From Bacilli bacterium (GTDB lineage: Bacteria > Bacillota_I > Bacilli_A > ML615J-28 > CAG-313), in contig DAOSEC010000001.1 of NCBI GenBank assembly GCA_035362935.1, forward strand, positions 71,665 through 135,664: a DNA stretch of 64,000 nucleotides. Direction: 5' to 3'. The translations under genes and the position numbers were made by a program. Shown piece by piece: positions 17,573 to 40,891 of this stretch (position 1 is the first letter of the stretch; each line of letters starts with the position of its first letter). The notes under the pieces are model-generated. The model had not been told where the DNA came from. It did no database searches and saw only the letters and a list, made by a program, of their open reading frames with translations.

Positions 17573-17690
17573 GGATCTCATTTTAGATACCTTCATCCAA
17601 GGTTAGGGTGTGAACCAGGTCAGGTCTTGACGGAAGCAGCCTTAAGCAATTCTTAACTTGTGGGTGAGGGTACTTAAAATGAGATCTTTT
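17573..17690 (+). ncRNA. ffs: signal recognition particle RNA (small 4.5S/scRNA-type)
   Basis: It contains the conserved domain IV sequence CCAGGUCAGGUC...GGAAGCAGCC. The 5' GGAUCUCAUUUUAG pairs with the 3' CUUAAAAUGAGAUC to close a long helix, which is followed by UUUUCUU. A TTGCAA-16-TATAAT promoter lies at 17533-17560. Confidence 0.75.
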
Positions 17691-20150: not shown

Positions 20151-22667
20151 TTATAGTCCACATTTTAATTGTGCGTTACAGTTTGTACAAGTATGGCAAC
20201 CACCAATGTCTTCTACCGTACCTTCAAGGCAAATAGGGCAAATGTCACCAATTTCAACACCGATGTTTTTTCCTGCTTTGCTTCGCAAATGGAGCTGACT
20301 TTCAGTTTCCTTTGGAACTTTTACTTCTTCAACTTGAATTCCTAAATCTGTGAACTCAACTTGTTTTGGTAATATTTCTTCGTTCTTAAGAGTGAGAACT
20401 TGAGTATCGCGACTTCCATCAACGTATACAGTACCACCCTTAGCACCATTCTTGTATAAATACATATATAGTTCTTGTACTTGTTCAACACTATATCCTT
20501 TCGGAGCATTGACTGTTTTTGAGATTGAGGAATCGACCCAGCGTTGAATAATGCATTGTACGGCTGCATGTTCATGAGCAGTCAATTCCATCGCCGAAAC
20601 AAACGTATTAGGTAATGTAGCTTCTGTATATTGCGGATATAGTTGTAGGAATCGTTCTACGATAGGAGCATTTACTTCCATAAATTTACCCAATCGACCA
20701 CTGCGGTAATACTTAAATGCAAAGTAAGGCTCTAATCCTGTAGAAACCCCAACCATAGTTCCAGTTGATCCTGTCGGAGCAATCGTCAATAGATGAGAGT
20801 TACGAATTCCATATTTTAATACACCATCGCGTATGTCTTTTGGCATTTTTTTCATAAAACCTGACTCTACAAATTTTTGACGAGACCCATATTGTTCTAA
20901 AAAGGGGAAACTTCCCTTTTCTTTTGCTAAATCAATCGATGTTTTGTAAGCATGATATGCGATAAACTCAAACAATTGATCGACAAACTTGTTTCCTTGT
21001 TTGGATCCATAGCGAATATTACAGTAAATCATCAAATCATGTAGACCCATAATTCCAAGCCCAACACGACGTTCACCGAGTGCTTGTTTTTTATTGGGTT
21101 CTAAGAAGTATGCCGTACGATCAATGACATTATCTTGCATACGCACACTTGCACGAATCGTTTTTTCTAACTTTGTCCAATTTACAGTTTGATGATCGAA
21201 ATCAACCATGTTTGCAAGATTGATTGCCGCTAAGTTACATACAGAGTATGGAGCAAGCGGTTGTTCTCCACATGGGTTCGTACAAACAACTTGTTGGTTG
21301 TATCCAGTGGCATTGGTCATATCGTTTGCATTGTCCATGAAGAAAATGCCCGGTTCAGCCGAATAAGTTGCACAAATGTTGATTAAATTCCATAATTCTT
21401 TGGCTTTAATGGATTTATAGACTCTTACGGAATAACCCATTTCTTGCCAACGTCTTACATCACCAATTTCATGCCATTTTTCATCGTAAGCTGCTTTTTC
21501 TCCGGCAGAGTAATTATCGATATCTGGAAAGCGCAAATCATAATAAGAATCGTTTTCAACTGCTTGCATAAATTCTTTTGTAATCGCAACTGAAATATTA
21601 GACCCACTTAGATATTCTGGATTATTTACCTCATATCTACCCTTGTACTTTAAAAATTCTTTCACCTTGTCATAAACACCACGTTTTAAGGTTCCTGGTT
21701 TTGCGTCCTCAAACTCACTTAAGGTTTCATACATTTCCATCTCTTCTGACTTCAGTGGAATAAATTTTAACTTATTTTTTGCTTCTCTAACTATATCTTC
21801 ATCTTGAATATGATCAATTAAAAATTGTAAAATTTTTGGGTTTTGCATTTTTGAGATAATGAACTCAATAATATCTGGATGCCAATCCGCCATCATAATC
21901 ATTTGTGCACCGCGGCGGGATCCACCCTGCTCAACAAGATGAGTCAGTTGTGATAAGTCATGTAACCAACTAACTGCACCACTTGATTTCCCACTGACTC
22001 CTTTGGCAAGTGAGTTTTTTGGTCTTAGTGTTGATCCGTTCGTACCTACTCCACCACCACGAGACATAATTTCCATAACTTGTTGGCGATGTTGACTGAT
22101 ACCAACACGTGAATCATGTACAAAAGGCATTACAAAACAGTTAAAATATGTCACAGCACTATTGCTTCCTGCACCAAACAATACTCGTCCAGCTGGAACA
22201 AGATTCAGTTCTGAAATCTCGTGATAGAAAGCATTTACCTTATCAAGAGTTTCACCCACTGCCAAATTGTTTGCAACGCGATGTGCAATCTGTTCATAAA
22301 ATATTTCCATAGGCTTATCTACCGCATTCTTCATTCGGCAAATTTCCCCTGTTGGAAGTTTGTCTGTTGCTAACCCATCGTACTCATCTTCTAATAATAT
22401 ATATATTTTTTCATCTACAATTTTTGTGATGTAACCAATCCCTCTTGATGGAAATTTTGGATCATCTTTTACAACACATACCACAAGGTCCCCTATTCCT
22501 AGTGTTAGGTGATTGATGTCTTTTTGGGTGTAACGATCTAACATTACTAAGCGAGAAACCCCATCAAATGTTTTATTCATTTTCTCATCAACTAAAAACA
22601 AATGGGGAAAATGATTTTTGATGTCCTGATTGAGTTTATCAATCAACGTCTTTTTGTAAGTATGCAT
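20151..22667 (-). CDS. nrdJ: ribonucleotide reductase, class II-like monomeric form (adenosylcobalamin-dependent type, NrdJ-like). The class is not certain.
   Basis: Active-site region TNPCGEQPL...CNLAAINL of class I/II RNRs. The length is 838 aa. A C-terminal CxxC...CxxC Zn-ribbon is present, and no nrdB/nrdF or nrdG partner lies nearby. Confidence 0.65.
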   Translation of the reverse strand: MHTYKKTLIDKLNQDIKNHFPHLFLVDEKMNKTFDGVSRLVMLDRYTQKDINHLTLGIGDLVVCVVKDDPKFPSRGIGYITKIVDEKIYILLEDEYDGLATDKLPTGEICRMKNAVDKPMEIFYEQIAHRVANNLAVGETLDKVNAFYHEISELNLVPAGRVLFGAGSNSAVTYFNCFVMPFVHDSRVGISQHRQQVMEIMSRGGGVGTNGSTLRPKNSLAKGVSGKSSGAVSWLHDLSQLTHLVEQGGSRRGAQMIMMADWHPDIIEFIISKMQNPKILQFLIDHIQDEDIVREAKNKLKFIPLKSEEMEMYETLSEFEDAKPGTLKRGVYDKVKEFLKYKGRYEVNNPEYLSGSNISVAITKEFMQAVENDSYYDLRFPDIDNYSAGEKAAYDEKWHEIGDVRRWQEMGYSVRVYKSIKAKELWNLINICATYSAEPGIFFMDNANDMTNATGYNQQVVCTNPCGEQPLAPYSVCNLAAINLANMVDFDHQTVNWTKLEKTIRASVRMQDNVIDRTAYFLEPNKKQALGERRVGLGIMGLHDLMIYCNIRYGSKQGNKFVDQLFEFIAYHAYKTSIDLAKEKGSFPFLEQYGSRQKFVESGFMKKMPKDIRDGVLKYGIRNSHLLTIAPTGSTGTMVGVSTGLEPYFAFKYYRSGRLGKFMEVNAPIVERFLQLYPQYTEATLPNTFVSAMELTAHEHAAVQCIIQRWVDSSISKTVNAPKGYSVEQVQELYMYLYKNGAKGGTVYVDGSRDTQVLTLKNEEILPKQVEFTDLGIQVEEVKVPKETESQLHLRSKAGKNIGVEIGDICPICLEGTVEDIGGCHTCTNCNAQLKCGL

Positions 22668-22926
22668 ATCTACCTACACCCTCTTCCTTCCTATATTCTT
22701 CCAAACCGAAAGTTATACTCATTATACAATACAAATTTTTAAATTTAAAGATGAAAATATTTTCATTTTTTTGTGATTTTTCGAATAGATGAAATTTCTA
22801 AAAAGCAACAAACAATTATAAAAATATTATTTTTTGGAAAAACAACGAAAGGTAGTTGAATAATTTCATTTTATTTTTTTAACTACTTTGTGGTATAATA
22901 CATTGTAAGATGAAACAGGTGATTCT

Positions 22927-25900
22927 ATGGCAAAACGATTAGAACTAGATTATCGTCTTAGACTTTCTAACCATCATTTATCAAATATATATGATTCAGG
23001 ATACTATTTAGAAGTCGGTAATTTAGATGCAAACCTCATTACAAGAATCATAAATGGCGAAGAGCTGTCTTTTTATGATGTAATCAATCCACATATAGCA
23101 CACGACAGTCCAAGCAAGATTGCGAATGTCGAGTACGACGAAGTATTGCAAATGCGATATTTTCTGAACAAAAAAGCGATTGATTCGAGTGAAAAGATTT
23201 TTTTGACATGTGGTATTCTAAAATGGAAATCCTCCAAAGACAGTGAAATATTCGCGCCAATCATATTGATACCAATTCGTGTTGTTGAACGAAAACTTAA
23301 TCAATTTTATCTAAAACGATCTGGAAAAATCATTCACAACAAATATCTAAGTGAAGAAATCAAACGTAGAATGGGAATGGATATTCCTCGATTTGATAAG
23401 CCAGAAACTGTTTTCGACATTGATTATTATGGAGAATTTTTAGCAAAATTAACAAATTCTTCTTTTGAACTTGGCAATTTTATTACCTATGCTAGAGTTG
23501 ATTATATGGACATTGATTTGGACCGAAATAAGTTTAGTCCTCAACGTTCCTTTATGAATTATGATTTAAATGAAATTCATCTTTACCCACTCATTCACTT
23601 AAACATGATTTTACCTGCGAACAAAGAACAAAAAGACGCCCTTATAGTGGCTTCTGAAGGGAAGAGTTTCGCAATTGATGGCAAACTTGGAACAGGAAAA
23701 ACAACAACAGCAATCAATATAATCGCAAACAAAATTCATCAAGAACAAAGCGTTTTATATATATCAAACGATTCTTACCAATTGAAAGCATTTAAACAAA
23801 GAGTGATTGAACTAAAACTTGACAAATATATGTTTGACTTTGATCATCCTTGTGAACAAACAGAATCAGTAGAGGAAGATATTGACATTCGTGTATCAAA
23901 AGAAAGTTATCATAAGCTCTCCGAATTAACGCATAGAATGACCAATATCCAAAAAATACTATTAAGTAAGGTTTGTGGATATCGTTATGGAGAAATTTAT
24001 CATCAAATAGCTTATTTGAGCAGATTAGATAAAGCAAGTTTGAGTTACCCAAAAATCATACACCTACATCGACATGAAATTGAACAAATCATCCCAAGTC
24101 TTAATCAAATCGAAGCTTCATTAATCAAACTAGTTCCTTTTGAAAAAAGCATTTGTCATTCTCTTCACGAAACATTAAAAGCGTCTGATGAAGAAAAGAT
24201 TAAAGAATCCTTAAAGCAATTTAAAATAACCCAATTACAGGGACAAATGATGTCAAAAAAATTGACAGATCTTTATCATATTCAACAAACAAATGATATC
24301 CGCCTTATTCGACGCCTAATTTATAATTTTAACTCATTAAAAAATCATCAACCATCTCAATCGTGGATTGATGAAGATTTGATTGCATATCAAAAAGCGT
24401 TGAAAAAAATTGATGAGTTAGAAACAAAGATTAAGCAGTATTATCTTGTTTCCGAAGAACTATCTGATAAGTTTGATTACCGCATCACCAGTGTAAACAT
24501 GGACGAAGTGATTACTGGTTTATTTGGTGAGTATTTTAAAGAAACCGAAGTTGAAATTGTAAATTTGCTACTTCAATACAAAAAGCAATTACTTCGTATT
24601 GCTTTGGGTGTGGAAAACAACAAAAACAATTTTACAAGATTAAAAGGTCAATTAAACAATCACTTTAGTACACGCAAAGTAGAATTAGGAACATTAGAAG
24701 AACTATCTGAACTTGTCACCTTTTTAGAACGAAATGAATTCAACAATAAATGGATTGGATTTGCGATTAACGAAAAGACACAATTATTGCGAAAAATGAA
24801 GCAATATGAAGATTATTTCCTTTCTTATCAAAGTTCTTATGTATATATTCTTGATTCTTTGGTAAAAAACGATTTAACAGCAATTTCAGAGCTTATAGAG
24901 CCGTTTAATAAGAAAGGCAAAGCAAAAGGAAATCAAACCAAACACGAGATAAAACGAATTAAAAAATACGTCAAACCTCACATTTGGAAAGACCCAACCT
25001 TTAACATGAACAAATTAATCCAAAAACTTAAAAAACATATTGAACTAGACAAGGAATATATTAGACAGAAATCGAGTTATGAAGAATTGTTTGGGGAACT
25101 CCCAGTACGCTTATTAGGACTAACCGATCAACTCTCAAATACCATTAATTTGTTAGAAAAGTATCGATTGAATAAAGCTTTTCCTGTACGAAACTATTTA
25201 AACTATTTTAGCAGTTTAAGTGCACCTGAACAAAAGAATGCTTTAAAAGATCTACAAACCATGATTTTGATTCAAAAAGAAATTGAGAAAAATATCGAAG
25301 AGCTAAAACCATTTGGGTTTAAAGTTCGTAGTTATCATTTTGAGTCTAGATTGCAAGAGATAGCTTCAATCTCGTTATATTTGAAGAAACTATATCGATC
25401 CAATGATTACATAAAGAGTTTAGTGCTCAAACCAAAAAATAATATTATCGTAGATGACTTTATTGCGGTATCCAATGATACAGCTGTGAAGCCAGCAGTA
25501 TTGCAATTATTTGACCCAGTTACCATTGCACAGTCAAATCAAGCACAAGTTGCAAGCATATCCCAAAACACGAAAGACGGTTTACAGGTGAATGATTACT
25601 ACTACATAAAACAACTTCTTGAAGAAAAGCAAAATGTGTTATCGTTTTTAGAAAAGAGCGAGTTTGAATATCGTTATTTGTATGGTTCTTATTACAAAGG
25701 GCTAAATACGGAAGTTTCAGCCATTCGATTGGCACTTGAAAAATTTGGAAAATTTATTAAAATGATTCCAAATCCGGAAGATGTCATAGGATTGTTTCGA
25801 CCAGACCAATATGTACGATTCCAAGCTGATTTTGAACAAGTATCCTATTTTTATGAAAAATGGATGGTTGCCTTCCGAGAATACTCCAAATATTTCAAAG

Positions 25901-27396
25901 AAAACAACATAGCTTATATTGATAATACATTCTTAGACAATGTTAAGCACATCGATGAATTGATGAAACACACAGATTCCTTGAAAGACTATTTAGTTGT
26001 ACTCGAACACTCAAATGTGTTAAAAGATTATAAGCTAGACGATATCGTGAAACGAATCTTTAATGGAGAACTAACAAACAACATTAAGCATGGATTTTTA
26101 TATCAATATTTCGTTTCTTTAAGCAAAGACTTTGTTCAAACATATCCAGAAATCTTAACTCTCCAAACCGTGAATGAAGGATTGATCGAAATCGATAAGC
26201 TAACAACGTTGATTTTAGAAGAGAACAAAGCCTTATTACAATCTGCTCAAGACGCTGATTATGAGAAAATTGCTCATAGAATGAAACGAATCAAACCAAA
26301 TAATTATAACGAAATGGTAAAGATTAGTTTACATAGTAAGTATCTTTATATTGCGGATTCAGATATCTTATTAAGTGGACTTGACATTGGCTTTTTTGAT
26401 TGCGTTATCGTCGATGATGCACATATTGCAAATTCCAATAAATATGTGAAAGTCGCAGAAGCAAAACAACTCATTATCATTGGTGACAAAGATGCCAAAA
26501 GTTCGATTGCAAACAACTTAATATCTAGAATTCGACACGGAAACACAATACCTTTAAAGTTTAACTATCATAGAAACAATAAAATTCTTATGGATTATAA
26601 AAAAGAAAAAGACAACAACAAAGGAATCATTGATGACTTTTTATTAAAAGAAACCGGGTTTTCTTATATTGAACAAGAACAACCATTCGTAGATTACATC
26701 ACGCAACTGCACCACAAAGACCCGAATGCAAAAATCAATATCTATGTTGGTAACGATTTGATGAATTTTACTGTATATAAACAACTCGCAAATTATTTTA
26801 TTGAAACGGGTTTTGAAAAAGACCAAGTGTTAGATATTTTATCAAATCAAATTCGAATTTCTGATGCAAGAATTAATTATTTAAGTTTTGCAGATTACAA
26901 CATATTCTATTACAATGATTATATCGATGTTGAAGAAGTTGTGCTTGAGATTACACTGACATCTTTGATGAGTGTACACAAAGCATTTATTATTTATCAT
27001 CATATTGACCCAGAACAAACACCAATTATCAAAAAACCACTAGAAACTTTGATTAAATATATTTCAAAATATAAGAAATGGAATCTAGTAGAAGACCAAG
27101 AATCTATTAAGTATCCATTATCACAATCTCTTGTCAACAAAGGGTTCAAAGTCTATCAAGGATTTGGTAACATTGATATCATTTTCAAGAAGAAAAATCA
27201 AGTTTATGGTATTATAGTGTATAATGAGCCACAAAAACTCGACTTAGATTTGATTGAAGATTACGAAAACTATGTTAAAACTATGGCAGAACAAGGAATA
27301 AAAATATATATGATTTTTTCTAAAGATGTTTGTGAACGATTTGATCAAGTCATAGAACATATTATTTCCCAATGTGAGGTACAACATGATTCGTAA
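22927..27396 (+). CDS. large DUF4011 / Upf1-like SF1 helicase-family protein with degenerate motor motifs (architecture resembles Hhe-type defence helicases)
   Basis: The N-terminal LTCGILKWK...EIFAPIILIPIRV matches the DUF4011 L.GfL.W / PLlLvPv signature. Walker A GKLGTGKTT is at about aa 255. After a ~900-aa insert comes Walker B VIVDDAH. Motif III reads IIGDKDAKS (no Q) and motif IV reads NYHRN instead of QYRMHP. No TRxK motif VI was seen. Confidence 0.55.
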   Translation: MAKRLELDYRLRLSNHHLSNIYDSGYYLEVGNLDANLITRIINGEELSFYDVINPHIAHDSPSKIANVEYDEVLQMRYFLNKKAIDSSEKIFLTCGILKWKSSKDSEIFAPIILIPIRVVERKLNQFYLKRSGKIIHNKYLSEEIKRRMGMDIPRFDKPETVFDIDYYGEFLAKLTNSSFELGNFITYARVDYMDIDLDRNKFSPQRSFMNYDLNEIHLYPLIHLNMILPANKEQKDALIVASEGKSFAIDGKLGTGKTTTAINIIANKIHQEQSVLYISNDSYQLKAFKQRVIELKLDKYMFDFDHPCEQTESVEEDIDIRVSKESYHKLSELTHRMTNIQKILLSKVCGYRYGEIYHQIAYLSRLDKASLSYPKIIHLHRHEIEQIIPSLNQIEASLIKLVPFEKSICHSLHETLKASDEEKIKESLKQFKITQLQGQMMSKKLTDLYHIQQTNDIRLIRRLIYNFNSLKNHQPSQSWIDEDLIAYQKALKKIDELETKIKQYYLVSEELSDKFDYRITSVNMDEVITGLFGEYFKETEVEIVNLLLQYKKQLLRIALGVENNKNNFTRLKGQLNNHFSTRKVELGTLEELSELVTFLERNEFNNKWIGFAINEKTQLLRKMKQYEDYFLSYQSSYVYILDSLVKNDLTAISELIEPFNKKGKAKGNQTKHEIKRIKKYVKPHIWKDPTFNMNKLIQKLKKHIELDKEYIRQKSSYEELFGELPVRLLGLTDQLSNTINLLEKYRLNKAFPVRNYLNYFSSLSAPEQKNALKDLQTMILIQKEIEKNIEELKPFGFKVRSYHFESRLQEIASISLYLKKLYRSNDYIKSLVLKPKNNIIVDDFIAVSNDTAVKPAVLQLFDPVTIAQSNQAQVASISQNTKDGLQVNDYYYIKQLLEEKQNVLSFLEKSEFEYRYLYGSYYKGLNTEVSAIRLALEKFGKFIKMIPNPEDVIGLFRPDQYVRFQADFEQVSYFYEKWMVAFREYSKYFKENNIAYIDNTFLDNVKHIDELMKHTDSLKDYLVVLEHSNVLKDYKLDDIVKRIFNGELTNNIKHGFLYQYFVSLSKDFVQTYPEILTLQTVNEGLIEIDKLTTLILEENKALLQSAQDADYEKIAHRMKRIKPNNYNEMVKISLHSKYLYIADSDILLSGLDIGFFDCVIVDDAHIANSNKYVKVAEAKQLIIIGDKDAKSSIANNLISRIRHGNTIPLKFNYHRNNKILMDYKKEKDNNKGIIDDFLLKETGFSYIEQEQPFVDYITQLHHKDPNAKINIYVGNDLMNFTVYKQLANYFIETGFEKDQVLDILSNQIRISDARINYLSFADYNIFYYNDYIDVEEVVLEITLTSLMSVHKAFIIYHHIDPEQTPIIKKPLETLIKYISKYKKWNLVEDQESIKYPLSQSLVNKGFKVYQGFGNIDIIFKKKNQVYGIIVYNEPQKLDLDLIEDYENYVKTMAEQGIKIYMIFSKDVCERFDQVIEHIISQCEVQHDS

Positions 27397-27955
27397 AAAA
27401 GGGTCTAAAAAATTACTCTATGAGTTTGTTAGATATTTAAAAGACAATCAAGATTCAACGATTGCGATCAAGCACCGACTACTCAAACTAGATGAAGCGG
27501 ATGTTGACCTAAATGCAAAAATGTATCGCGGAAGAACTCTAATGCATTACGCAGTCATGATGAATAAGAAAAATATGATCAAATTATTTATCAAAAGCGG
27601 TGTTAATCCAAATATCGCAGATGATGACTTTTACACACCACTTCATCTTGCAATTAGTAAAAAATATTACCATGCAGCAAAAGAACTTCTACGACATGAA
27701 GTGGATTTGAACGCTGGAGCAGAATTTGAACAAACACCATTGCACATAGCTGTAATAAGTGGTAATCTAGATTTGGTTAAGTTACTAATAGACCATGGGG
27801 CAGACTATTTGATGATTGATGAAAAAAACAATTATCCGATTGATTATGCAATTGATGAAAAAGATGTTAAAATTATTAATTATCTATTAAGCAAACAATC
27901 CATCGATGATGTAAGACAAAAACAAATTGATAAAATAAATAAAGAAAAAAGGTGA
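27386..27955 (+). CDS. ankyrin-repeat protein (~4 ANK repeats)
   Basis: Repeated TPLH.A...G....V..LL..GAD.N units. A GAGGT SD lies 5 nt before the ATG at 27386. It overlaps the stop of the upstream large gene by 11 nt and ends 5 nt before cdaA. Confidence 0.8.
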   Translation: MIRKKGSKKLLYEFVRYLKDNQDSTIAIKHRLLKLDEADVDLNAKMYRGRTLMHYAVMMNKKNMIKLFIKSGVNPNIADDDFYTPLHLAISKKYYHAAKELLRHEVDLNAGAEFEQTPLHIAVISGNLDLVKLLIDHGADYLMIDEKNNYPIDYAIDEKDVKIINYLLSKQSIDDVRQKQIDKINKEKR

Positions 27956-27960
27956 TTTAG

Positions 27961-28767
27961 ATGGAATTATTTGACAATTTAAGAGACTATTTTTCATCCT
28001 ATACAAACAATTATTCTGTTTTCGGTGTGATTCGTTTGGTCATAGATTTATTGTTTTTAGGAATAATTGTGTTTGTTATATTGAACTTTCTGTTTAAAAA
28101 CGCAAAGATATGGTTAGTCCTTAAAAGCTTCTTCTTTCTATTCATAATTGGGGTGATATCGCTTGCTCTTGATTTATCGATTATGAAAGAAGTAATCAAG
28201 TATGGTATTTTTGTTTTAATTGGTGTTATAGTTATCACTTACTCACCAGAAATCAAACAATTAACCGATGCTCTTGTCCGTACAAAAGGAGTAAAGCATA
28301 AAATCAATACAGAAGAAGAAAAAGAACAATTGATTAACACTTTAATTACTACAGTAGAGTATTTATCAAAAAGACACATTGGGGCCATCATCACAATAGA
28401 GGAAGAAAACTCACTCAATATGTATATTGATAAAGCAATAATAATAGATTCACAAGTAAGTTTTGAGTTATTGACAACTATTTTTACCCCAGGGACCGCA
28501 CTCCACGATGGTGCAGTAATTATTCGTGGAAATCGCATTATGTGTGCTGCGGCATATTTCCCATCTACTGATAAGTTCGATATACCAAAAAATTTAGGTT
28601 CTAGACATCGTGCTGCTATTGGTATTAGTGAGATTTGTGATGCATTTACTATTGTTGTTTCTGAAGAGCGCGGTAAGGTTTCTACCACAATTGATGGAAC
28701 CATCAATATAGGGGTTTCTCTTGATGATTTAAGAGAATCACTTAATAAATATGTATTGACTCAATAA
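27961..28767 (+). CDS. cdaA: diadenylate cyclase (c-di-AMP synthase), membrane-anchored
   Basis: Three N-terminal TM helices followed by a DAC domain with TGTALHDGAVII.GNRI and LGSRHRAAIGISE motifs. Confidence 0.85.
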   Translation: MELFDNLRDYFSSYTNNYSVFGVIRLVIDLLFLGIIVFVILNFLFKNAKIWLVLKSFFFLFIIGVISLALDLSIMKEVIKYGIFVLIGVIVITYSPEIKQLTDALVRTKGVKHKINTEEEKEQLINTLITTVEYLSKRHIGAIITIEEENSLNMYIDKAIIIDSQVSFELLTTIFTPGTALHDGAVIIRGNRIMCAAAYFPSTDKFDIPKNLGSRHRAAIGISEICDAFTIVVSEERGKVSTTIDGTINIGVSLDDLRESLNKYVLTQ

Positions 28768-28795
28768 TAACAAATCGCTCTATCATATTTTGGTC

Positions 28796-28824
28796 TTGTG
28801 AAAGAAATATATATATGATATAAT
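28796..28824 (+). promoter_or_regulatory. candidate promoter for mgsA (TTGTGA, 17-nt spacer, TATAAT)
   Basis: Hexamers and spacing seen about 18 nt upstream of the mgsA ATG (SD AAAGGTGA). Confidence 0.35.
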
Positions 28825-28841
28825 AAATAAAAGGTGATTTT

Positions 28842-29195
28842 ATGAAAATAGCACTAATCGCTCACGACAAGAAAAAAGATGAAATGATTGAGTTTGTGAA
28901 AAAGCATGTTTCTTTTTTTGCACAACATATATTATTTGCTACCGGAACAACAGGAAGCCGCATTATGGGAGCTACCAATCTAAAGATCCACTGTTTTCGA
29001 TCAGGACCTTTAGGTGGAGATCAAGAAGTCGGAGCAAAGATTGCGAATGGCGAACTTGACTTGGTTATCTTTTTTCGGGACCCATTAACTGCACAACCAC
29101 ATGAACCAGACATATCAGCACTGTTGCGATTAGCTGATGTATACAAAATACCTCTTGCTACTAACATATCGACAGCAGAAATGCTAGTCAAATAG
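28842..29195 (+). CDS. mgsA: methylglyoxal synthase
   Basis: [17 protein letters not shown] and GG...D motifs of MgsA. The length is 117 aa. Confidence 0.85.
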
Positions 29196-29219
29196 ATATT
29201 ATTTTAGGAAGGTGAAATA

Positions 29220-30503
29220 ATGCAAACAATTATTGCAATGCTACAAGGGTTGTATCAAACCTTATTCGTACAGTATCCTGCATTTATCGCAATTATTTTA
29301 ACAACTACCATTGTATTAATGGGATTTGTTCGGATGCTAGCGTTTAAAAAAGTACCAGTATTAGAAATTGTGTTAGCAATCTTAATTGCTGGATTTTATT
29401 ATGCTCTTAGAGTTCCAATCGTTGTTCCAGCAGGACTTGTAACAAAAGCACGATATGGTGTATACATTTTTGCTTTTTTGGCAAACGTTGCAACAATCAT
29501 TCATTTTATTATCACAAAAAAAGCAGTAACCGCAACAACTCAAACTTCTGTTGATTACTTAAAAAATGCAAATGTAGATATATATGTTGAAGTTAATCAA
29601 CGCGGTAAAATCAAAGAATGCAACTTGGAGTTTTTGAGTATTGTTAATTTAGAGCGAAAAGATGTTTTAGGAAAAAAATTATTACCGCTCATTATTGATA
29701 AAGTTGACATCGTTACCTTTGATGGAGACCTCTTTAATGAATCTGTCATCAAAGCACTACATGAAAAATCAAAAAATCGTAAGAAAGAAAAAAACAATAT
29801 TCAATTTGAAATTCAGTATCGTAATAACGAAGGAAGTTTATTAACATATCACTTCTTTGAAATTCCAATTTTTGTGGGAAATCGATATGTTGGTAAAGTA
29901 CTGGTTGGTGAAAAAGAAAAGTCAACTCTGCTTGTAAGGGCACAAACAGCTCTAGGACAATTAATGGCAGATGTTAATACCGCTAAACAGCAAACATTTG
30001 CACTATTCACATTACTAAACGAACCTGCGTTCTTATTTGATCACTCAAGTAAAAAGTATTTATTATCTGAAAAGATCAGACGCGTCTTAAACATGAACGA
30101 ATCCGAGATTAATTTTGATCAGTATCTAAAAATGATGCACCCAGATGACATCGAACGATTTGTTGAAAAAAGTGCTGAAGTGAACAGTCGTACCATCACA
30201 AAGTTCACATACCGTATAAAAATTGGCAGTGAATATATGGTGTTTGAAGAAAGTTCAATTTTACTTGATGATGAAAACTCTCAAGTATCACTCATACGTT
30301 TGGTTAAAGTGAGAAAAGAAAAAGCACCAGAACCTGTTGTAGAACAAAAACATGAAGAAGTGGTTGCTCCCGTAGCTGTTGAGACGAAAGATTCCGTTAT
30401 TGTAAAACAAAAAATTGAACCAAAACCTCAGCCAAAACCAACCAATGAAGATTTACTAAAAGAACTAAAAGCACTAGAAGATCGAATTTTTACAAAGAAA
30501 TAA
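29220..30503 (+). CDS. membrane protein with PAS-like cytoplasmic domains and no recognisable output domain
   Basis: Three N-terminal TM helices. A PAS-like core follows (FDQYLKMMHPDDIERF and a preceding similar block). The C-terminus is Pro/Lys-rich. Confidence 0.4.
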   Translation: MQTIIAMLQGLYQTLFVQYPAFIAIILTTTIVLMGFVRMLAFKKVPVLEIVLAILIAGFYYALRVPIVVPAGLVTKARYGVYIFAFLANVATIIHFIITKKAVTATTQTSVDYLKNANVDIYVEVNQRGKIKECNLEFLSIVNLERKDVLGKKLLPLIIDKVDIVTFDGDLFNESVIKALHEKSKNRKKEKNNIQFEIQYRNNEGSLLTYHFFEIPIFVGNRYVGKVLVGEKEKSTLLVRAQTALGQLMADVNTAKQQTFALFTLLNEPAFLFDHSSKKYLLSEKIRRVLNMNESEINFDQYLKMMHPDDIERFVEKSAEVNSRTITKFTYRIKIGSEYMVFEESSILLDDENSQVSLIRLVKVRKEKAPEPVVEQKHEEVVAPVAVETKDSVIVKQKIEPKPQPKPTNEDLLKELKALEDRIFTKK

Positions 30504-35938: not shown

Positions 35939-35953
35939 GAAGGGGTGAACTTT

Positions 35954-37810
35954 ATGGCATTAAGAAAAAGAAGAGGACCATTAGGCTGTTTATTTAAATT
36001 TGTATTTACGATCGTATTTTTTGTTGTAGCAATTGTGGGTGTCATAGCCTTTATGTTTTATGATGGAAAGAACAATACTCCAGTAGAACTCTATGGCGAA
36101 GGCATTAACTTAGAAGAAGAATTAACATTATCTCTTTATGAAGCACTTGACAATCTAGATACACAAAATAAAATTCAGGTTGTGTTGACAGAAGACCAAA
36201 TCAACAAAATCATATATATGATTATCAAAGAAAGCATTAATCCTGCATATGCTCCTGGAGAAAATTGTGCCACGTCTGCGTGTGCAAATGCGATGGTAAT
36301 TGGACCACTAGGTGATGAAATTCCTCAACTAGCAGGACAAGAAGCATACATCAAAGGAATCTATGCTGAAATCATTGATGATAAGATATCAATCAGTATG
36401 CCAGTTGAAGTGATGGGGTTTAAATCCCGTATTTATCTAAGTGTTTCATTAGTGACAGTTGGAACTAATATTGAGTTAAGATTTGATTCTGTAGGAGTCG
36501 CCAAAATTAAATTAACATCAGGTATAGGACAAATGTTATTACAACCAATCATGCAAACATTTAATCTTTCAGCAGATGAAATCAATCAAAATTTTGCTGA
36601 AAAAGGATTGCCAATTGAGTTTGATATGGCAAATCTGAAAATGATATTTAAGCAAGAAGACTTACCTCAAGTTATCAATCAACTACTACCAGATTCTGGA
36701 GAGTCTAACTTGATGAAGGACTTTCTAAAAGTTATGATTGAAAACACAAACGTGGAAATGAGTTTGGTTGGAAGCACAACACCAGGGGCTGGGTCATTAA
36801 ACTTAGGTATTGATCTAGAAAAATTAAGTTTAGAAGAAGGAAACAAACAAATTCCAGCATATCTAGGAACACCATTTAATCAAACAACCTTTGTTACAAA
36901 TCAAACACAAGGATTGTTGTTTTCAACTCTAGTCGGAAACCCAAGATTCATCTTTTTGGAAAGTGATTTTAACAAAATGATCTACTCCTCCACAAGCGGA
37001 TTTGACGGATTTGGACAAACAATAACATTACCCAATAGTACACAAACATTTACTTTTGGCCTTGATGCATTATGGTTTGAAATCACACAAACCAATGTAA
37101 ATATTATCGCTCAAGTTAATATTAATGGATTTATTACAAGATTCCGCATATTAACTACCGTCGAAGATAATGACACAGATTATGTTAAATTAATGATTCA
37201 AGACAACCTTGATATTGGATTTGATTTAGGAGAAGTACTAGGAGAGTATGGAGTAGCTGATAGTCAGTTCTTAATTGATTTGATAGGACCAAGCATTCAA
37301 AGCATGAATGTGATGGGATTTGATAGTACTCTCAATGCATTTATATTAGATGCAGATGCGTTCAATCAAATGTTGAATTTAGGCGGAAGTGGAGGATCAC
37401 CTATTGGTGCTGATTCCATTCATATTCGCAATGGTAGAATTGAAATTGCAATATCAACAACTGATAGTGCATTGTCTGATGCAATCGATAATTTGTCAAA
37501 TATTGTAGGAACAGTATTAACAGGGTTTGATACAACCGTGAATGATAATATCGACTTATTTGACACAACCGGTGACCAAGCAGAGGCCGTTAACAACATA
37601 ATTGAAACACTTGAATCAATCTCGACTGTTCTAAATGATCCAGAAGCTGACTTATCGGAAGATGACATTGTGACATTAATTGAAAACTTTGGATCGTTAA
37701 CTCCTGAAAATCAAGAAGTTCTAGCGGAATTATTACAAAATGAAGCAGACGACATTGAAAGTGGAGAATTAAATGAATTGTATGAGTTGTTATTTGGACA
37801 ACAACCATAA
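35954..37810 (+). CDS. hypothetical membrane-anchored protein with an acidic C-terminal tail
   Basis: The N-terminus is Arg/Lys-rich followed by a single TM helix. The remainder is large, with a very acidic C-terminus (DPEADLSEDD...). The ATG at 35954 has the SD AAGGGGTGA. It lies 15 nt after tsaD. Confidence 0.5.
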   Translation: MALRKRRGPLGCLFKFVFTIVFFVVAIVGVIAFMFYDGKNNTPVELYGEGINLEEELTLSLYEALDNLDTQNKIQVVLTEDQINKIIYMIIKESINPAYAPGENCATSACANAMVIGPLGDEIPQLAGQEAYIKGIYAEIIDDKISISMPVEVMGFKSRIYLSVSLVTVGTNIELRFDSVGVAKIKLTSGIGQMLLQPIMQTFNLSADEINQNFAEKGLPIEFDMANLKMIFKQEDLPQVINQLLPDSGESNLMKDFLKVMIENTNVEMSLVGSTTPGAGSLNLGIDLEKLSLEEGNKQIPAYLGTPFNQTTFVTNQTQGLLFSTLVGNPRFIFLESDFNKMIYSSTSGFDGFGQTITLPNSTQTFTFGLDALWFEITQTNVNIIAQVNINGFITRFRILTTVEDNDTDYVKLMIQDNLDIGFDLGEVLGEYGVADSQFLIDLIGPSIQSMNVMGFDSTLNAFILDADAFNQMLNLGGSGGSPIGADSIHIRNGRIEIAISTTDSALSDAIDNLSNIVGTVLTGFDTTVNDNIDLFDTTGDQAEAVNNIIETLESISTVLNDPEADLSEDDIVTLIENFGSLTPENQEVLAELLQNEADDIESGELNELYELLFGQQP

Positions 37811-37817
37811 ATAGTTT

Positions 37818-37847
37818 AACAGGTGGAGAAATCCGCCTGTTTTTTTA
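37818..37847 (+). terminator. rho-independent terminator
   Basis: CAGGTGGA gaaa TCCGCCTG followed by TTTTTTT. Confidence 0.6.
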
Positions 37848-37985
37848 TGGAATCACAAAAGATATATAATAAGCATTGAAAAAGCATATTCACAATGATA
37901 TAATTAAAATATATATATTGTTGACAATCGTTATAAAAGACTGCATTAATCAACAAAAAAGCAACAATCATAGAGGGGAAAACAT

Positions 37986-39836
37986 ATGGAATTACCAGGT
38001 ATATTCAATTATGATATTATATTTGCCCTATTTTTAGGCTTTTTTGTATTGCTTGGAGCACATAAAGGTTTCGAGAAAATGTTGAAGTTAGTGTTAATAT
38101 TTATTATTCCAATTGTTGTACTTTATTACTTTGGAACAACCATTCATAAGTACATCCCGTCTTTGGAAATTTTTAATCAAGTTGTGGTATCAATTGGAAA
38201 CATCATTCCTGCTCTTTTGCCACACACCGAAGTAGTGAAATATTTGTTTATAGAAACGATTCTTTACTTAGTGATGACTCTCATATTAGCAGCTATCGCC
38301 AGCATGATAAAAATCAAGGCAAAAAAATCACTCTTAGAAATAAAAATGGTGTTATGGAAAAAAGTGGTAGGTGCGGTATTATCTGTAGTTTTATTTTATG
38401 TTTTTAGTTTTTATATGATATATCCATTACAACTTATCGGAATTAACTATCACAACAGCTATGTTGTTGAACCAATGGTTCAAAATGGTTTAGATGTCAT
38501 AAATGTTGCGCCTCTATTGAAGCATAAAGACAAAGTAATTCATGATTATGTAAGTTTTACTGAAGTAGAATCCAGTTTGCTTGGTAATGAAGCAAAACAT
38601 GCCTATCAAGAAATTGTTAAAATCCAAAATGACATATTCACATTTGAAATGAGATTTATGGATATCGTTTATCCAGCATTAAGAACCAATGCAAGAGATG
38701 CATTGCTTGCAAATAAAACCTTCGTTGATCCACTCAATCCACATAGAGGATTCGCAAGTGCTCTCATAGTAGAACAAGGTACGTTACTATACTATGATAT
38801 TTTAATCGCATTAGAACAAGAAAGCACCAGCATTGCGATCGTAAGAAGCGAATATGATACCGTGTTAAAGTATAGAAGTATGATATCCTTTTTCTATGAC
38901 ATTCTAAATGGCGAGATACTTCTTGATTATGAAGATATGACAGATGCATCCATCAAAAACGTGCTTGATTCTTATGTCACCTATTTTGAAGATAATATGA
39001 CAAATAATGTAGCATTTCAGTTAATATTAATACAAATATACGATCGTATCACAGCTTATTATCTATATGGCAACTTGATGGGATGTGCTGTAAATGAACT
39101 TACCAGTTGTGCCTTATCGATTACTCCAATTGTAGATACTCCAAAAGTGTATCAAACACAAATGAGACAAGATATTACAAATCATATCAATATTGATCGT
39201 ATTATTGCGTATGCTGTTGATGGATTCCAACCGGATGCCTTAACCACATTAGGGTTAAGCAATCAACACATTTCTAAATTGTTAAAACAAAAAGAAAGTT
39301 TTGTGCGTTATACAACTTTTTATAAAGAATCTGTAGATGGCAACGAATATAACATTAGTTTTGCTAATAAGGTAATGATGGCTATGATGAATAACATCAA
39401 ATACAAAGAATTGCTCCTACGATCAAATTTACTACGAGCTTACATGAATGATTTAGGAAGCAACTATCAAAACAAACTACAAATCACAGATAACATATAT
39501 ATATCAAGTGAAACGTTTAATATGAATATGGCACTAATTGACATCATATTTCACACTGAAATTTGGGATGGAACACAACAATTAAATGTCGGAGATATGG
39601 AACGCTTGATAGACAAAGTTCAATACTATGTTAACAATAAAATAATAACACAATCATATGCGCAAGAACTAATGAACCATTTGGTCTTTGGACAAGACAA
39701 TTATCATCAAAGTTATCTTATTGATATCATTGAAGCCAATCAAGTATCGAATGCTGCACTGAACTATTTTATCAACTCCAGTGCTACATTTATTTCACAA
39801 GAACTGAAAGATCAAATTGCTAGTTATTTACCATAG
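37986..39836 (+). CDS. CvpA-like N-terminal membrane domain protein with a ~450-aa extension
   Basis: The N-terminal DIIFALFLGFFVLLGAHKGFEKML parallels the CvpA D(I/L)I...G..KGF motif. It has 4-5 TM helices and then a long soluble domain. Confidence 0.5.
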   Translation: MELPGIFNYDIIFALFLGFFVLLGAHKGFEKMLKLVLIFIIPIVVLYYFGTTIHKYIPSLEIFNQVVVSIGNIIPALLPHTEVVKYLFIETILYLVMTLILAAIASMIKIKAKKSLLEIKMVLWKKVVGAVLSVVLFYVFSFYMIYPLQLIGINYHNSYVVEPMVQNGLDVINVAPLLKHKDKVIHDYVSFTEVESSLLGNEAKHAYQEIVKIQNDIFTFEMRFMDIVYPALRTNARDALLANKTFVDPLNPHRGFASALIVEQGTLLYYDILIALEQESTSIAIVRSEYDTVLKYRSMISFFYDILNGEILLDYEDMTDASIKNVLDSYVTYFEDNMTNNVAFQLILIQIYDRITAYYLYGNLMGCAVNELTSCALSITPIVDTPKVYQTQMRQDITNHINIDRIIAYAVDGFQPDALTTLGLSNQHISKLLKQKESFVRYTTFYKESVDGNEYNISFANKVMMAMMNNIKYKELLLRSNLLRAYMNDLGSNYQNKLQITDNIYISSETFNMNMALIDIIFHTEIWDGTQQLNVGDMERLIDKVQYYVNNKIITQSYAQELMNHLVFGQDNYHQSYLIDIIEANQVSNAALNYFINSSATFISQELKDQIASYLP

Positions 39837-39863
39837 ACACTTTTTGTAAGGAGGTGAAGAAAA

Positions 39864-40891
39864 TGGAATTTCAAGATGGTTTAGACCTATCCGAAATCGT
39901 TAGAAGACAGGAACTTCAGGCTAAGATTAGAAAGAACCGTAAAGTGGATTTAAAAACGTTCAAAGATCGTATTGTTAGCGATCCAATGATGATTAAAAAT
40001 GTTGCAGGTCAAAATGAAACGACGTATGAAGAAAAAACGTTGTTCTTGAGAACCAATCCATTTTCTTATGATCCAAGCAAATCGAAGTTTGTTGTTGACT
40101 CCATTGAGGAATATATGATAACAGTTAAAGGAAAACATATGACATTTGGGAATCTAGTAAGAACCAAAGAGTTACCAACAAACATAAAAAAGAAAAATAT
40201 AAAAAAACACTTAAAAAACTGGATAGGTGAGTACGAAAAAACGAAGGATGAAATGTTAGACCTGATTGGAGCGAAAGTCGATGTGATTGGTGATATCGAG
40301 ATAAGCAAATTTTCGGTTGGAAAAGTAATATTCTATATTATTATGTTTATACTCAGTGCTATCATAATGTTCCGACACGATCTTGTTGTTAACTTATTAG
40401 GAAGATTAGCATTTATGAGAAATCCTATCCAAATGTTTTATCAAATCTATGCATCAAGCAGTTTCATTCCAATCATTGGTAGTGCAATGATATATGTGTT
40501 AATTGCATCGCTCTTATACTCCATCTATCACAACACTGTGTTAACCGATTTTAGAAATGACTATCGCCAGTCAAAGATTACACTTAATCGTTCGAAATCT
40601 ACCGTGACAAGAGATTTCTTATCAAGAGCGAACCGAGTATACAACTACTATATGAAAAATTATAAAAGTAGAAAGCTGAAACCTTATCCGATGGAACAAG
40701 TCATTTCGAAAGAAAAAGGGCTTGAATACATGAATCAGTTATCAGACTCGACGATTAAAAAAGCATCTCACTTTAAAAATCAAAAAAAGAAGTATCGATT
40801 CTACTCGTGGGTATTTTCCATATTACCTATTATTGCGGTAGCAGGATTTTATGGATATCTCATTTATGAAATAGCGAAGACTATATTTTAG
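39864..40891 (+). CDS. hypothetical membrane protein
   Basis: A ~150-aa N-terminal soluble part followed by 3-4 TM helices. SD AAGGAGG precedes the ATG at 39864. Confidence 0.45.

What the first reader, a model, noticed from the sequence alone, without database searches (positions are those of the whole stretch)
22927..28767. Operon: a degenerate DUF4011/Upf1-like SF1 'helicase' (1489 aa), an overlapping ankyrin-repeat gene, and cdaA (c-di-AMP synthase)
The three genes are tightly packed. The ankyrin ATG overlaps the stop of the large gene by 11 nt, and cdaA starts 5 nt after the ankyrin stop. No terminator was found inside the block. In most Firmicutes cdaA is followed by cdaR and glmM. Here it is instead preceded by a huge ATPase-like protein and an ankyrin protein, and no cdaR is visible in the window. 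Proteins with the DUF4011 + AAA_11/AAA_12 layout are, as far as I recall, the Hhe-type anti-phage helicases. Finding such a protein housekeeping-embedded and co-transcribed with the essential second-messenger cyclase suggests two readings. It may be a lineage-specific regulator or partner of CdaA. Or it may be a defence-derived module whose output is wired into c-di-AMP signalling. I do not know either arrangement to be described.
Basis: partly seen in the sequence, partly recalled or inferred. Interest (0 to 1): 0.75.

Follow-up and report, generated by a model that had tools for sequence, protein, structure and literature searches.

The report
Dead helicase and ankyrin joined to CdaA
In one uncultured clade of Acholeplasma-like Bacilli, the c-di-AMP synthase gene cdaA is always preceded, with overlapping or nearly touching reading frames, by a catalytically decayed relative of DUF4011 anti-phage helicase-nucleases and usually a small ankyrin protein, which makes these two the likely clade-specific partners of CdaA in place of the usual CdaR and GlmM.

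Summary
Three packed + strand genes sit in a housekeeping region: a 1489-aa gene (22927-27396), an ankyrin gene (27386-27955, 11-nt overlap) and cdaA (27961-28767, 5-nt gap).

The large protein is a full-length but very divergent homologue of DUF4011 / SF1 helicase / Vsr-like nuclease proteins of the Hhe and ProA type (hhalign probability 99.7%). It keeps the Q-motif, Walker A and a DD Walker B. It has lost helicase motifs V and VI, the nuclease active site and DUF3320.

The linkage to cdaA is not chance:
- In all 48 GTDB loci found through the large gene whose contig reaches far enough, and in all 7 in-clade loci found through CdaA, cdaA follows the large gene.
- The ankyrin gene lies between them in about 93% of loci.
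- The junctions are tight everywhere.
- The 57 such CdaAs form one clade in a neighbour-joining tree.
- 0 of 77 other CdaA loci carry the pair. Those mostly carry cdaR and glmM, which are absent at the in-clade loci.

Best reading: a defence-type helicase-nuclease, domesticated and vertically inherited, now acts with the ankyrin protein as a CdaA partner or regulator. This rests on comparative genomics only. I found no description of it in the literature searched.

The parts
22891..22899 (+). Candidate extended -10 promoter (TGgTATAAT) about 28 nt upstream of the start of the large gene. It lies in the 259-nt divergent intergenic region shared with the ribonucleotide reductase gene.
   Evidence: Read directly from the sequence. 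The consensus scan did not list it because the -35 hexamer is weak. Inferred, not shown.
22927..27396 (+). Large gene, 1489 aa. A divergent, catalytically decayed member of the DUF4011 / SF1 (Upf1-like) helicase / Vsr-like nuclease superfamily. AGGTGA ribosome-binding site at 22917-22922.
   Evidence: ORF. Full-length homology to canonical DUF4011-AAA_11-AAA_12-MTES proteins: hhalign probability 99.7, E = 8e-27, 1133 columns. Sharply delimited family: members score above 1000 bits and the next best hit 134 bits. Roughly 80 clusters among 1.84 billion representative proteins.
23188..23325 (+). DUF4011 core (aa 88-133, motif 'KE.F.PIILIPV'). It lies inside a conserved N-terminal domain (aa 1-230) that holds many near-invariant residues: L18, E29, G31, G96, E107, P111, L114, P116, N138, D166.
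   Evidence: Pfam PF13195, 33.1 bits against a cut-off of 22.2. Conservation across 51 sequences.
23680..23703 (+). Walker A / P-loop G252-KLG-T-G-K258-T259, preceded by the near-invariant Q235 (Q-motif position).
23899..26331 (+). All-alpha insertion of about 810 residues (aa ~325-1135) splitting the RecA-like 1A domain between Walker A and Walker B. It is the fastest-evolving part. It includes a disordered insert specific to the window's lineage at aa 844-888 (25456-25590).
   Evidence: AlphaFold2 model, pLDDT 78.5. Per-window conservation. Canonical DUF4011 proteins carry an equivalent insertion. It matches the NCBIfam ProA profile over aa 224-758 and the PADLOC PDC-S37 profile over aa 221-532.
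26395..26421 (+). Walker B / motif II, 'FDCVIVDDA(H)'. D1163-D1164 are near-invariant and replace the canonical DEASQ.
26539..27081 (+). Second RecA-like (2A) domain. The fold is retained, but helicase motifs V (QGDERD) and VI (GGERRLNVAxTRA, the arginine finger) are lost.
27109..27387 (+). C-terminal Vsr / PD-(D/E)xK-like domain (aa ~1395-1487) without a conserved catalytic site.
27386..27955 (+). Ankyrin-repeat protein, 189 aa, about 4 repeats, with no signal peptide or transmembrane segment. Its start overlaps the stop of the large gene by 11 nt.
   Evidence: Pfam Ank_2 at 3e-26. Orthologues are present in 55 of 59 complete related loci, at a median 45% identity to the window protein. It is lost in two lineages: L042/L046/L063 and L045.
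27961..28767 (+). cdaA: a membrane-anchored diadenylate cyclase (three N-terminal hydrophobic helices plus a DAC domain) with the DGA and RHR motifs intact.
   Evidence: TIGR00159, 206.2 bits against a cut-off of 188.8; Pfam DAC at 5e-37. Motifs read in the translation.
28842..29195 (+). mgsA (methylglyoxal synthase). It may be co-transcribed, but a promoter-like site (TTGTGA-17-TATAAT with an upstream TG) lies at 28796-28824.
   Evidence: Pfam MGS. Promoter scan. An MGS gene is among the two genes downstream of cdaA in 21 of 47 in-clade loci.
29220..30503 (+). Membrane protein with two weak PAS domains. Its orthologues follow cdaA (or cdaA-mgsA) across the clade and in sister lineages, often with a GGDEF domain. 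It may be a further member of the c-di-AMP module.

Best explanation
The three genes form an ancestral, vertically inherited core operon of one clade of uncultured Acholeplasmatales-like Bacilli.

The large protein descends from a DUF4011 / SF1 helicase / Vsr-nuclease protein of the Hhe/ProA kind, and has been domesticated. It still has what is needed to bind an adenine nucleotide: the Q-motif, Walker A and a DD Walker B. It has lost the arginine finger and motor motifs of a translocating helicase, and it has lost the nuclease active site. It therefore most likely acts as a nucleotide-dependent switch or scaffold rather than as an enzyme on DNA.

I propose that it forms a complex with the membrane-anchored cyclase CdaA, together with the cytosolic four-repeat ankyrin protein acting as an adaptor. 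I propose that this complex controls c-di-AMP synthesis by promoting or blocking the DAC-domain oligomerisation that CdaA needs for activity. In that role it would stand where the operon-encoded partners CdaR and GlmM stand in other Firmicutes, and where RadA stands for DisA.

Shown here: the homology, the fate of each motif, the predicted folds, the strict and reciprocal gene linkage, the overlapping junctions, the monophyly, and the absence of cdaR and glmM at the locus.

Inferred: physical interaction, nucleotide binding, and the direction of regulation (activation or inhibition).
For: 1. Linkage.
- cdaA follows the large gene in all 48 GTDB loci whose contig reaches far enough.
- In the CdaA-anchored metagenome scan, the 3 in-clade loci have the pair and 0 of 77 others do.

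2. The pair survives rearrangement. In L063 both flanks are entirely different and the ankyrin gene is gone, yet the large gene and cdaA are still 60 nt apart.

3. Junctions suggest translational coupling across 55 loci. Large to ankyrin: median -8 nt (range -23 to +6). Ankyrin to cdaA: median +1 nt (range -20 to +21).

4. Single origin and vertical descent.
- The 57 CdaAs with the large gene upstream are monophyletic, with no non-member inside.
- Pairwise distances of the large protein correlate with those of CdaA (r = 0.92), the ankyrin protein (0.91), HflX (0.94) and IspD (0.91).

5. Partner swap. YbbR and PGM_PMM do not appear among the families listed for the 90 ORFs downstream of cdaA in the clade. 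Among 103 ORFs downstream of cdaA outside it, 50 have YbbR and 22 have PGM_PMM.

6. Motif pattern. Walker A, the DD Walker B and the Q-motif are at least 95% conserved. Motifs V and VI and the nuclease site are lost. The folds are retained.

7. Precedent. Operon-encoded CdaR and GlmM bind and regulate CdaA. The helicase gene radA lies immediately upstream of disA, and RadA inhibits DisA (PMC8573169).
Against: - There is no experimental, expression or interaction evidence of any kind.
- The whole region (hflX, the reductase gene, ..., ispD/F) is fairly syntenic in this group, so part of the linkage could be inherited gene order.
- The large protein evolves fast (median 25% identity, against 48% for CdaA). 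That is unusual for a tightly fitted subunit, although most of the divergence lies in the helical insertion.
- Sister lineages manage with neither the pair nor cdaR at the locus, so the pair is not simply required to replace CdaR.
- The ankyrin gene was lost twice.
- DD in place of DE may mean poor or no hydrolysis, and nucleotide binding itself is untested.
- Whether cdaR or glmM exist elsewhere in these genomes was not tested.
Confidence: 0.6

Rival explanations
1. Inherited synteny without functional coupling. The large protein and the ankyrin protein have some unrelated cytosolic role, and merely sit in a stable housekeeping super-operon that happens to contain cdaA.
For: - Flanking genes (hflX, the reductase gene, mgsA, the PAS gene, ispD/F, tsaE/B/D) are also widely conserved around the locus.
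- Distance matrices of all these genes correlate with one another.
- The large protein diverges much faster than CdaA.
Against: - Flanks do vary (ClpB-like, MatE and LemA genes upstream; DcuC, ackA and others downstream), yet the large gene and cdaA are never separated in more than 55 loci.
- The junctions overlap throughout.
- mgsA and the PAS gene come and go, but the pair does not.
Confidence: 0.2
2. A nucleic-acid checkpoint built on CdaA, analogous to DisA. The large protein still binds DNA or RNA through its DUF4011 and helicase-like cleft and its Vsr-like domain, and reports nucleic-acid status to CdaA through the ankyrin adaptor. This is a more specific version of the best explanation.
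For: - The helicase and Vsr-like folds are retained.
- The N-terminal DUF4011 domain is among the best conserved parts.
- The radA-disA pair gives a precedent for a helicase coupled to a DAC cyclase.
- Inactive helicase-like subunits such as AddB and RecC, which are among the fold matches, act as DNA-recognition scaffolds (my own knowledge, not tested here).
Against: - No nucleic-acid-binding residues could be identified or tested.
- Motifs that contact nucleic acid in SF1 helicases (III, IV, V) are altered or lost.
- No DNA-repair genes are linked to the operon.
Confidence: 0.12
3. An active Hhe/ProA-like anti-phage system whose output is, or which is controlled by, c-di-AMP.
For: - The PADLOC PDC-S37 profile hits at 4e-28 and the Hhe profile at 1e-11.
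- NCBIfam ProA scores 91.7 bits and Hhe 40.6 bits.
- Full-length homology to the DUF4011 helicase-nucleases.
Against: - The scores are far below the family cut-offs of 1500 and 2000 bits.
- The nuclease catalytic site is not conserved, whereas Hhe defence is abolished by a single nuclease-site mutation.
- Helicase motifs V and VI are lost.
- The gene is core, single-copy at a fixed locus, vertically inherited and monophyletic.
- The one canonical relative examined sits on a conjugative element next to an AbiEii gene. That is a single example.
Confidence: 0.04

Closest known systems
cdaA-cdaR-glmM operon of Firmicutes (the CdaA / CdaR(YbbR) / GlmM complex)
   Same: A membrane-anchored CdaA is encoded in a tight operon with two proteins that are not cyclases. 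In the known case those proteins bind CdaA and tune its activity (PMC8573169). The CdaA here is a bona fide TIGR00159 member.
   Different: - The partners are unrelated proteins.
- They lie upstream of cdaA, not downstream.
- Neither is membrane-anchored or extracytoplasmic, as CdaR is.
- Neither is a metabolic enzyme, as GlmM is.
- YbbR and PGM_PMM domains do not appear among the families listed downstream of cdaA in the clade, but are the rule outside it.
radA(sms)-disA pair
   Same: A helicase-type P-loop ATPase gene lies immediately upstream of a DAC-domain cyclase gene. RadA binds and inhibits DisA (PMC8573169).
   Different: - RadA is a RecA/Lon-type hexameric helicase, not an SF1 protein, and it is catalytically active.
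- DisA is a soluble DNA-scanning cyclase, not CdaA.
- No ankyrin adaptor is involved.
Hhe (NCBIfam NF042953) and ProA / PDC-S37 (NF058533) single-gene anti-phage DUF4011 helicase-nucleases
   Same: - The same domain order: DUF4011, then Walker A, then a long helical insertion, then Walker B, then a 2A domain, then a Vsr-like domain.
- Homologous over about 1130 columns.
- The best library hits.
   Different: - Scores of 40.6 against a cut-off of 2000 bits, and 91.7 against 1500 bits.
- Motif II is DD, not DE.
- Motifs V and VI and the nuclease site are lost, and there is no DUF3320.
- About 300-500 aa shorter.
- A core, vertically inherited locus rather than mobile or defence islands.
Inactivated helicase-like scaffolds (AddB, RecC)
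   Different: - There is no evidence here of a partner motor or of DNA-end processing.
- The functional comparison rests on my own knowledge of AddAB and RecBCD, and was not tested.

Membership tests
DUF4011 (Pfam PF13195) | Score at or above the Pfam gathering threshold | tested here: met
   33.1 bits against 22.2. The match is partial (profile positions 97-145 of 158, residues 88-133). The profile-profile alignment extends it.
Hhe anti-phage protein (NCBIfam NF042953, PADLOC Hhe) | Equivalog score at or above the cut-off of 2000 bits | tested here: not met
   40.6 bits, over residues 224-334 only. PADLOC Hhe at 1e-11.
Hhe anti-phage protein (NCBIfam NF042953, PADLOC Hhe) | Intact Vsr-type nuclease active site, which is needed for defence | tested here: not met
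Hhe anti-phage protein (NCBIfam NF042953, PADLOC Hhe) | Anti-phage activity, and a location in variable or defence regions | tested here: not met
   The location is core, at a fixed locus, and vertically inherited. Anti-phage activity itself cannot be tested with these tools.
ProA / PDC-S37 anti-phage protein (NCBIfam NF058533) | Equivalog score at or above the cut-off of 1500 bits | tested here: not met
   91.7 bits over residues 224-758. PADLOC PDC-S37 at 4e-28.
SF1 Upf1-like helicase | Two RecA-like domains with the SF1 fold | tested here: met
SF1 Upf1-like helicase | A complete set of motor motifs: I, II (DExx), III, V, and VI with the arginine finger | tested here: not met
   Motif I is kept. 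Motif II is DD. Motif III is reduced to 'IIxG'. Motifs V and VI are absent.
CdaA (NCBIfam TIGR00159) | Equivalog score at or above the cut-off; DAC domain with DGA and RHR motifs; N-terminal membrane anchor | tested here: met
   206.2 bits against 188.8. Pfam DAC at 5e-37. 'HDGAVII' and 'GSRHRAA' are present. Three hydrophobic N-terminal helices were read by eye.
Canonical cdaA-cdaR-glmM operon | A YbbR-domain gene and a GlmM (PGM_PMM) gene downstream of cdaA | tested here: not met
   Neither family appears among the 25 of 26 families listed for the 90 downstream ORFs of 47 in-clade loci. There is none in the window. Positive control: 50 YbbR and 22 PGM_PMM among 103 ORFs at out-of-clade loci. 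Presence elsewhere in the genomes was not tested.
Ankyrin-repeat protein | Ank repeat profiles above threshold | tested here: met
   Ank_2 92.1 bits, Ank 89.4 bits, 3-4 repeats.

The most novel reading that the evidence does not exclude
A phage-defence-type DUF4011 helicase-nuclease was captured once, stripped of its motor and nuclease chemistry, and turned into a nucleotide-gated input module. Through an ankyrin adaptor it sets the activity of the essential cyclase CdaA. That would be a previously unknown way of regulating c-di-AMP synthesis, possibly coupling it to nucleic-acid or ATP status as DisA does. It would also be a clear case of a defence protein exapted into core second-messenger signalling.
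Probability: 0.3. Interest if true: 0.8.

Novelty: new variant of a known kind. Interest (0 to 1): 0.62.

Why it matters
How CdaA activity is set is still an open question. The only known protein regulators are CdaR and GlmM, and how CdaR works is unclear (PMC8573169).

This finding offers a natural experiment. It is a monophyletic clade in which two unrelated proteins sit in the operon position, with overlapping reading frames, while cdaR and glmM are missing from the locus. If the proteins interact, three things follow:
- a new regulatory logic for an essential second messenger;
- a concrete example of a defence-type helicase-nuclease being domesticated as a catalytically dead switch or scaffold;
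- a rare housekeeping role for a bacterial ankyrin protein.

The idea is directly testable by heterologous expression, although the organisms themselves are uncultured.

Tried and rejected
- **Riboswitch or leader RNA.** Nothing in Rfam over 22500-29300 at E up to 1. Only SRP RNA and two tRNAs are found in the whole window.
- **Literature.** No paper links diadenylate cyclase with ankyrin, or c-di-AMP with Acholeplasma, in a relevant way. Nothing was found on PDC-S37 or on an anti-phage ProA, so the primary description of ProA was not located.
- **Closest canonical relative.** P0155 (Niallia) is not on record for a context look-up.
- **Ankyrin fused to the large protein in loci that lack the ankyrin gene.** No such domain is present.
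- **The ~780-aa protein that follows cdaA in sister lineages as a cryptic relative of the large protein.** It is not (large-family HMM E of 0.04 or worse); its N-terminus carries a GxGxxG motif (GGGLGS) typical of dinucleotide-binding proteins.
- **'The pair simply replaces cdaR-glmM'.** Weakened, because sister lineages with the same flanks have neither.
- **Multimer prediction.** Not possible with the tools available.
Full report
**1. The observation**

- The ankyrin ATG overlaps the TAA stop of the large gene by 11 nt, with a GAGG ribosome-binding site 6 nt upstream.
- The cdaA ATG follows the ankyrin TGA after 5 nt.
- No terminator-like site lies between the start of the large gene and cdaA. 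The one + strand match sits inside the cdaA coding sequence, has a 5-bp stem, and the total count is below the shuffled expectation.
- A TGgTATAAT extended -10 element lies at 22891-22899.
- The surroundings are core chromosome: SHMT, hflX, a ribonucleotide reductase, mgsA, ispD/F, tsaEBD, glnS, pcrA, ligA, uvrA, lgt, whiA, SRP RNA and tRNAs.
- None of the window ORFs I scanned, nor those with precomputed Pfam hits for their L001 orthologues, has a YbbR (CdaR) or PGM_PMM (GlmM) domain.
- There is no riboswitch or other Rfam element in 22500-29300.

**2. What the large protein is**

Library searches detect the following.
- Pfam finds DUF4011 above threshold (33.1 against 22.2 bits, residues 88-133), and only weak generic P-loop and helicase hits around residues 233-323. 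It does not find AAA_11 or AAA_12.
- The best PADLOC hits are PDC-S37 (4e-28) and Hhe (1e-11).
- The best NCBIfam hits are the anti-phage proteins ProA (91.7 bits) and Hhe (40.6 bits). Both lie far below their cut-offs of 1500 and 2000 bits.

A profile of 27 family members aligns with a profile of seven canonical DUF4011 + AAA_11 + AAA_12 + MTES(Vsr-like) + DUF3320 proteins. The probability is 99.7%, E = 8e-27, over 1133 columns. The alignment covers DUF4011, Walker A, the long insertion, Walker B, the second RecA-like domain and the C-terminal nuclease-like domain. The protein is therefore a full-length but very remote homologue of these helicase-nucleases.

The fate of each motif can be read from that alignment and from a 51-sequence alignment.

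| Feature | Canonical proteins | This family |
|---|---|---|
| Q-motif | Q | Q235, near-invariant |
| Walker A | GPPGTGKS | G252-x-x-G255-x-G257-K258-T, near-invariant |
| Motif II | DEASQ | DDAH, with D1163 and D1164 near-invariant |
| Motif III | GDxKQLPP | reduced to 'IIxG' |
| Motif V | QGDERD | lost |
| Motif VI | GGERRLNVAxTRA | lost |
| Nuclease motif | 'vDia...GIxCDG' | not kept; no residue of the domain is at least 95% conserved |
| DUF3320 | present | absent |

The AlphaFold2 models agree with this.
- The last ~90 residues of that model match small PD-(D/E)xK and Vsr-like nucleases: I-Bth0305I 10.6, NGO0050 10.0, Hjc 9.2, Vsr 9.1.

'Degenerate DUF4011/Upf1-like SF1 helicase with a Vsr-like C-terminus' is therefore right. 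'DUF3320' is not.

The pattern is an adenine-nucleotide-binding site kept while the motor and nuclease chemistry are gone. That is what one expects of a switch or scaffold, and is reminiscent of AddB and RecC. That last comparison rests on my own knowledge.

**3. The family and where it occurs**

The family is small and sharply bounded.
- In 5.8 billion proteins, members score above 1000 bits against the family profile, and the next protein scores 134 bits.
- In an exhaustive HMMER pass over 1.84 billion representatives, there are roughly 80 clusters of 1330-1510 aa that match from about residue 8 onward.
- Canonical DUF4011 helicases match only residues ~90-340.

All carriers are uncultured MAGs from digesters and animal guts. 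They are labelled Bacilli, Acholeplasmataceae, Acholeplasmatales, Anaeroplasma, Tenericutes, Mollicutes or Erysipelotrichaceae. A few are obviously mislabelled.

**4. Linkage to cdaA**

- *Loci found through the large gene.* Of 50 GTDB species loci, every one whose contig extends far enough has cdaA next on the same strand (48 of 48). The ankyrin gene lies between them in 45.
- *Look-ups starting from CdaA.* Four look-ups, chosen only for long contigs, all have the large gene upstream.
- *After rearrangement.* In L063 both flanks are completely different and the ankyrin gene is missing, yet the large gene and cdaA remain 60 nt apart.
- *Junctions across 55 loci.* Large to ankyrin: median -8 nt (range -23 to +6). 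Ankyrin to cdaA: median +1 nt (range -20 to +21).
- *Unbiased CdaA-anchored metagenome scan.* It returned 80 loci with CdaA at 30-48% identity. The three closest (43-48%) have the pair, and none of the other 77 does.
- *Phylogeny.* In a neighbour-joining tree of 129 CdaA sequences, the 57 with the large gene upstream form one clade with no outsider inside.
- *Vertical descent.* Pairwise distances of the large protein correlate with those of CdaA (r = 0.92), ankyrin (0.91), HflX (0.94) and IspD (0.91). This indicates vertical co-inheritance, not mobility.
- *Contrast with a canonical relative.* The one canonical DUF4011 helicase whose context I could read sits in a conjugative element beside an AbiEii gene. 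That is a single example.

**5. What happened to cdaR and glmM**

- *Outside the clade.* Among 103 ORFs taken from the two positions downstream of cdaA in 55 loci, 50 carry YbbR and 22 carry PGM_PMM domains. This is the textbook cdaA-cdaR-glmM operon (PMC8573169).
- *Inside the clade.* Among 90 such ORFs from 47 loci, neither family appears. The listed families are MGS (21), IspD (15), YgbB (12), GGDEF (9) and PAS.
- *The caveat.* The sister lineages in the CdaA tree (L080, L086, L094, L096) and two similar loci (L072, L076) mostly share the same frame: hflX and the reductase gene divergent from cdaA where the contig shows them, and a PAS-GGDEF gene and ispD/F downstream. They have neither the large-ankyrin pair nor cdaR.

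The loss of cdaR and glmM from the locus is therefore older than, or independent of, the gain of the pair. The pair is an addition to a cdaA + membrane-PAS(-GGDEF) core, and not a one-for-one replacement. I could not test whether cdaR exists elsewhere in these genomes.

**6. Mechanism**

The most economical reading is that the three proteins work together.
- CdaA needs higher-order association of its DAC domains for activity.
- GlmM inhibits CdaA by blocking that association.
- RadA, encoded immediately upstream of disA, inhibits DisA.

By analogy, I propose that the ankyrin protein is the adaptor. It is four repeats long, cytosolic, and as conserved as CdaA (45% against 48% median identity to the window protein). 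It would contact the DAC domain or the juxtamembrane region. The large protein would be a nucleotide-dependent switch or scaffold whose state promotes or prevents productive CdaA oligomers.

The conserved DUF4011 domain and the helicase-like cleft could still bind nucleic acid. That would give a DisA-like checkpoint. This is a narrower and less likely version of the same idea.

Three steps are inferred and not shown: interaction, nucleotide binding, and the sign of the regulation.

The main rival is inherited gene order without functional coupling. It is disfavoured by the invariance of the pair while the flanks change, and by the overlapping junctions.

An active defence role is unlikely, for three reasons:
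- the locus is core and vertically inherited;
- the scores are far below the family cut-offs;
- the nuclease site is lost, and Hhe needs that site for defence.

**7. Comparison and novelty**

- *What it works like.* It probably works like CdaR/GlmM with CdaA, or RadA with DisA.
- *What it is related to.* By descent it is a relative of Hhe/ProA-type DUF4011 helicase-nucleases. It fails their membership tests on score, motor motifs, nuclease site and genomic setting.
- *Literature.* I found no paper linking diadenylate cyclases with ankyrin proteins or with DUF4011 proteins.
- *Classification.* I rate it a new variant of a known kind: a new, clade-specific set of operon partners for CdaA, built from a domesticated defence-type protein.

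The organisms are uncultured and there is no functional evidence. The comparative signal is unusually clean, however, and the hypothesis can be tested by heterologous expression.

Noticed in passing
window 29220-30503 (+); also L007 9819-11432, L061 10230-11762, L072 2608-4194, L094 10727-11881: A membrane protein with PAS domains follows cdaA (or cdaA-mgsA) throughout the clade and also in the sister lineages that lack the large-ankyrin pair. In many relatives it also carries a GGDEF domain. The TM-PAS-GGDEF layout resembles the N-terminal half of the c-di-AMP phosphodiesterase GdpP, but there is no DHH/DHHA1 domain. It may be the older conserved partner of this CdaA.
   Followed up: partly
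L042, L046, L063 (one lineage) and L045: The ankyrin gene is absent in two lineages. There the large gene is followed directly by cdaA, with gaps of 57-60 nt or 2 nt, and no ankyrin domain is fused to the large protein.
   Followed up: yes
L080 3456-5795, L094 8366-10711, L096 825-3209: In the sister lineage, a conserved ~780-aa protein with an N-terminal GxGxxG motif (GGGLGS) follows cdaA. It has almost no Pfam match and is unrelated to the large protein. It may be another lineage-specific neighbour of cdaA.
   Followed up: partly
window 25456-25590 (aa 844-888 of the large protein): A ~45-residue insertion specific to the window's lineage. The model is low-confidence (pLDDT below 50) here, and alignment conservation is about 0.09. 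It explains why this protein is 1489 aa rather than ~1430 aa.
   Followed up: partly
L053 5995-8319 and 8294-10207: In Acholeplasmatales bacterium DTU056 the large gene is split into two overlapping ORFs. This is either a frameshift (pseudogene) or an assembly error.
   Followed up: no
window 5925-14165 (+): A 2746-aa ORF whose only Pfam signal is a short DUF3502 match. Its function is unknown.
   Followed up: no
window 35945-43123 (+): Four consecutive ORFs (621, 616, 345 and 739 aa) have no Pfam match at the thresholds used.
   Followed up: no
window 28842-29195 (+): Methylglyoxal synthase (mgsA) sits directly after cdaA here, and an MGS gene is among the two downstream genes in 21 of 47 related loci. 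A promoter-like TTGTGA-17-TATAAT with an upstream TG lies in the 74-nt gap at 28796-28824.
   Followed up: partly
L009, L023, L027, L030, L032, L037, L045: The record titles of several MAGs (Prevotella sp., Bacteroidales, Staphylococcaceae) disagree with their gene content and with similar loci labelled Bacilli, Anaeroplasma or Acholeplasmataceae. L009, for example, has the same gene layout and coordinates as L010 and L011. These are probably taxonomic mislabels.
   Followed up: no
window 17584-17679 (+): Bacterial small SRP RNA (Rfam RF00169, 56.7 bits).
   Followed up: no
literature, PMC10250203: In Pseudomonas aeruginosa a large DUF4011 gene is itself a conserved core gene that flanks defence hotspot cDHS1. 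DUF4011 proteins are therefore not always cargo of mobile islands.
   Followed up: no
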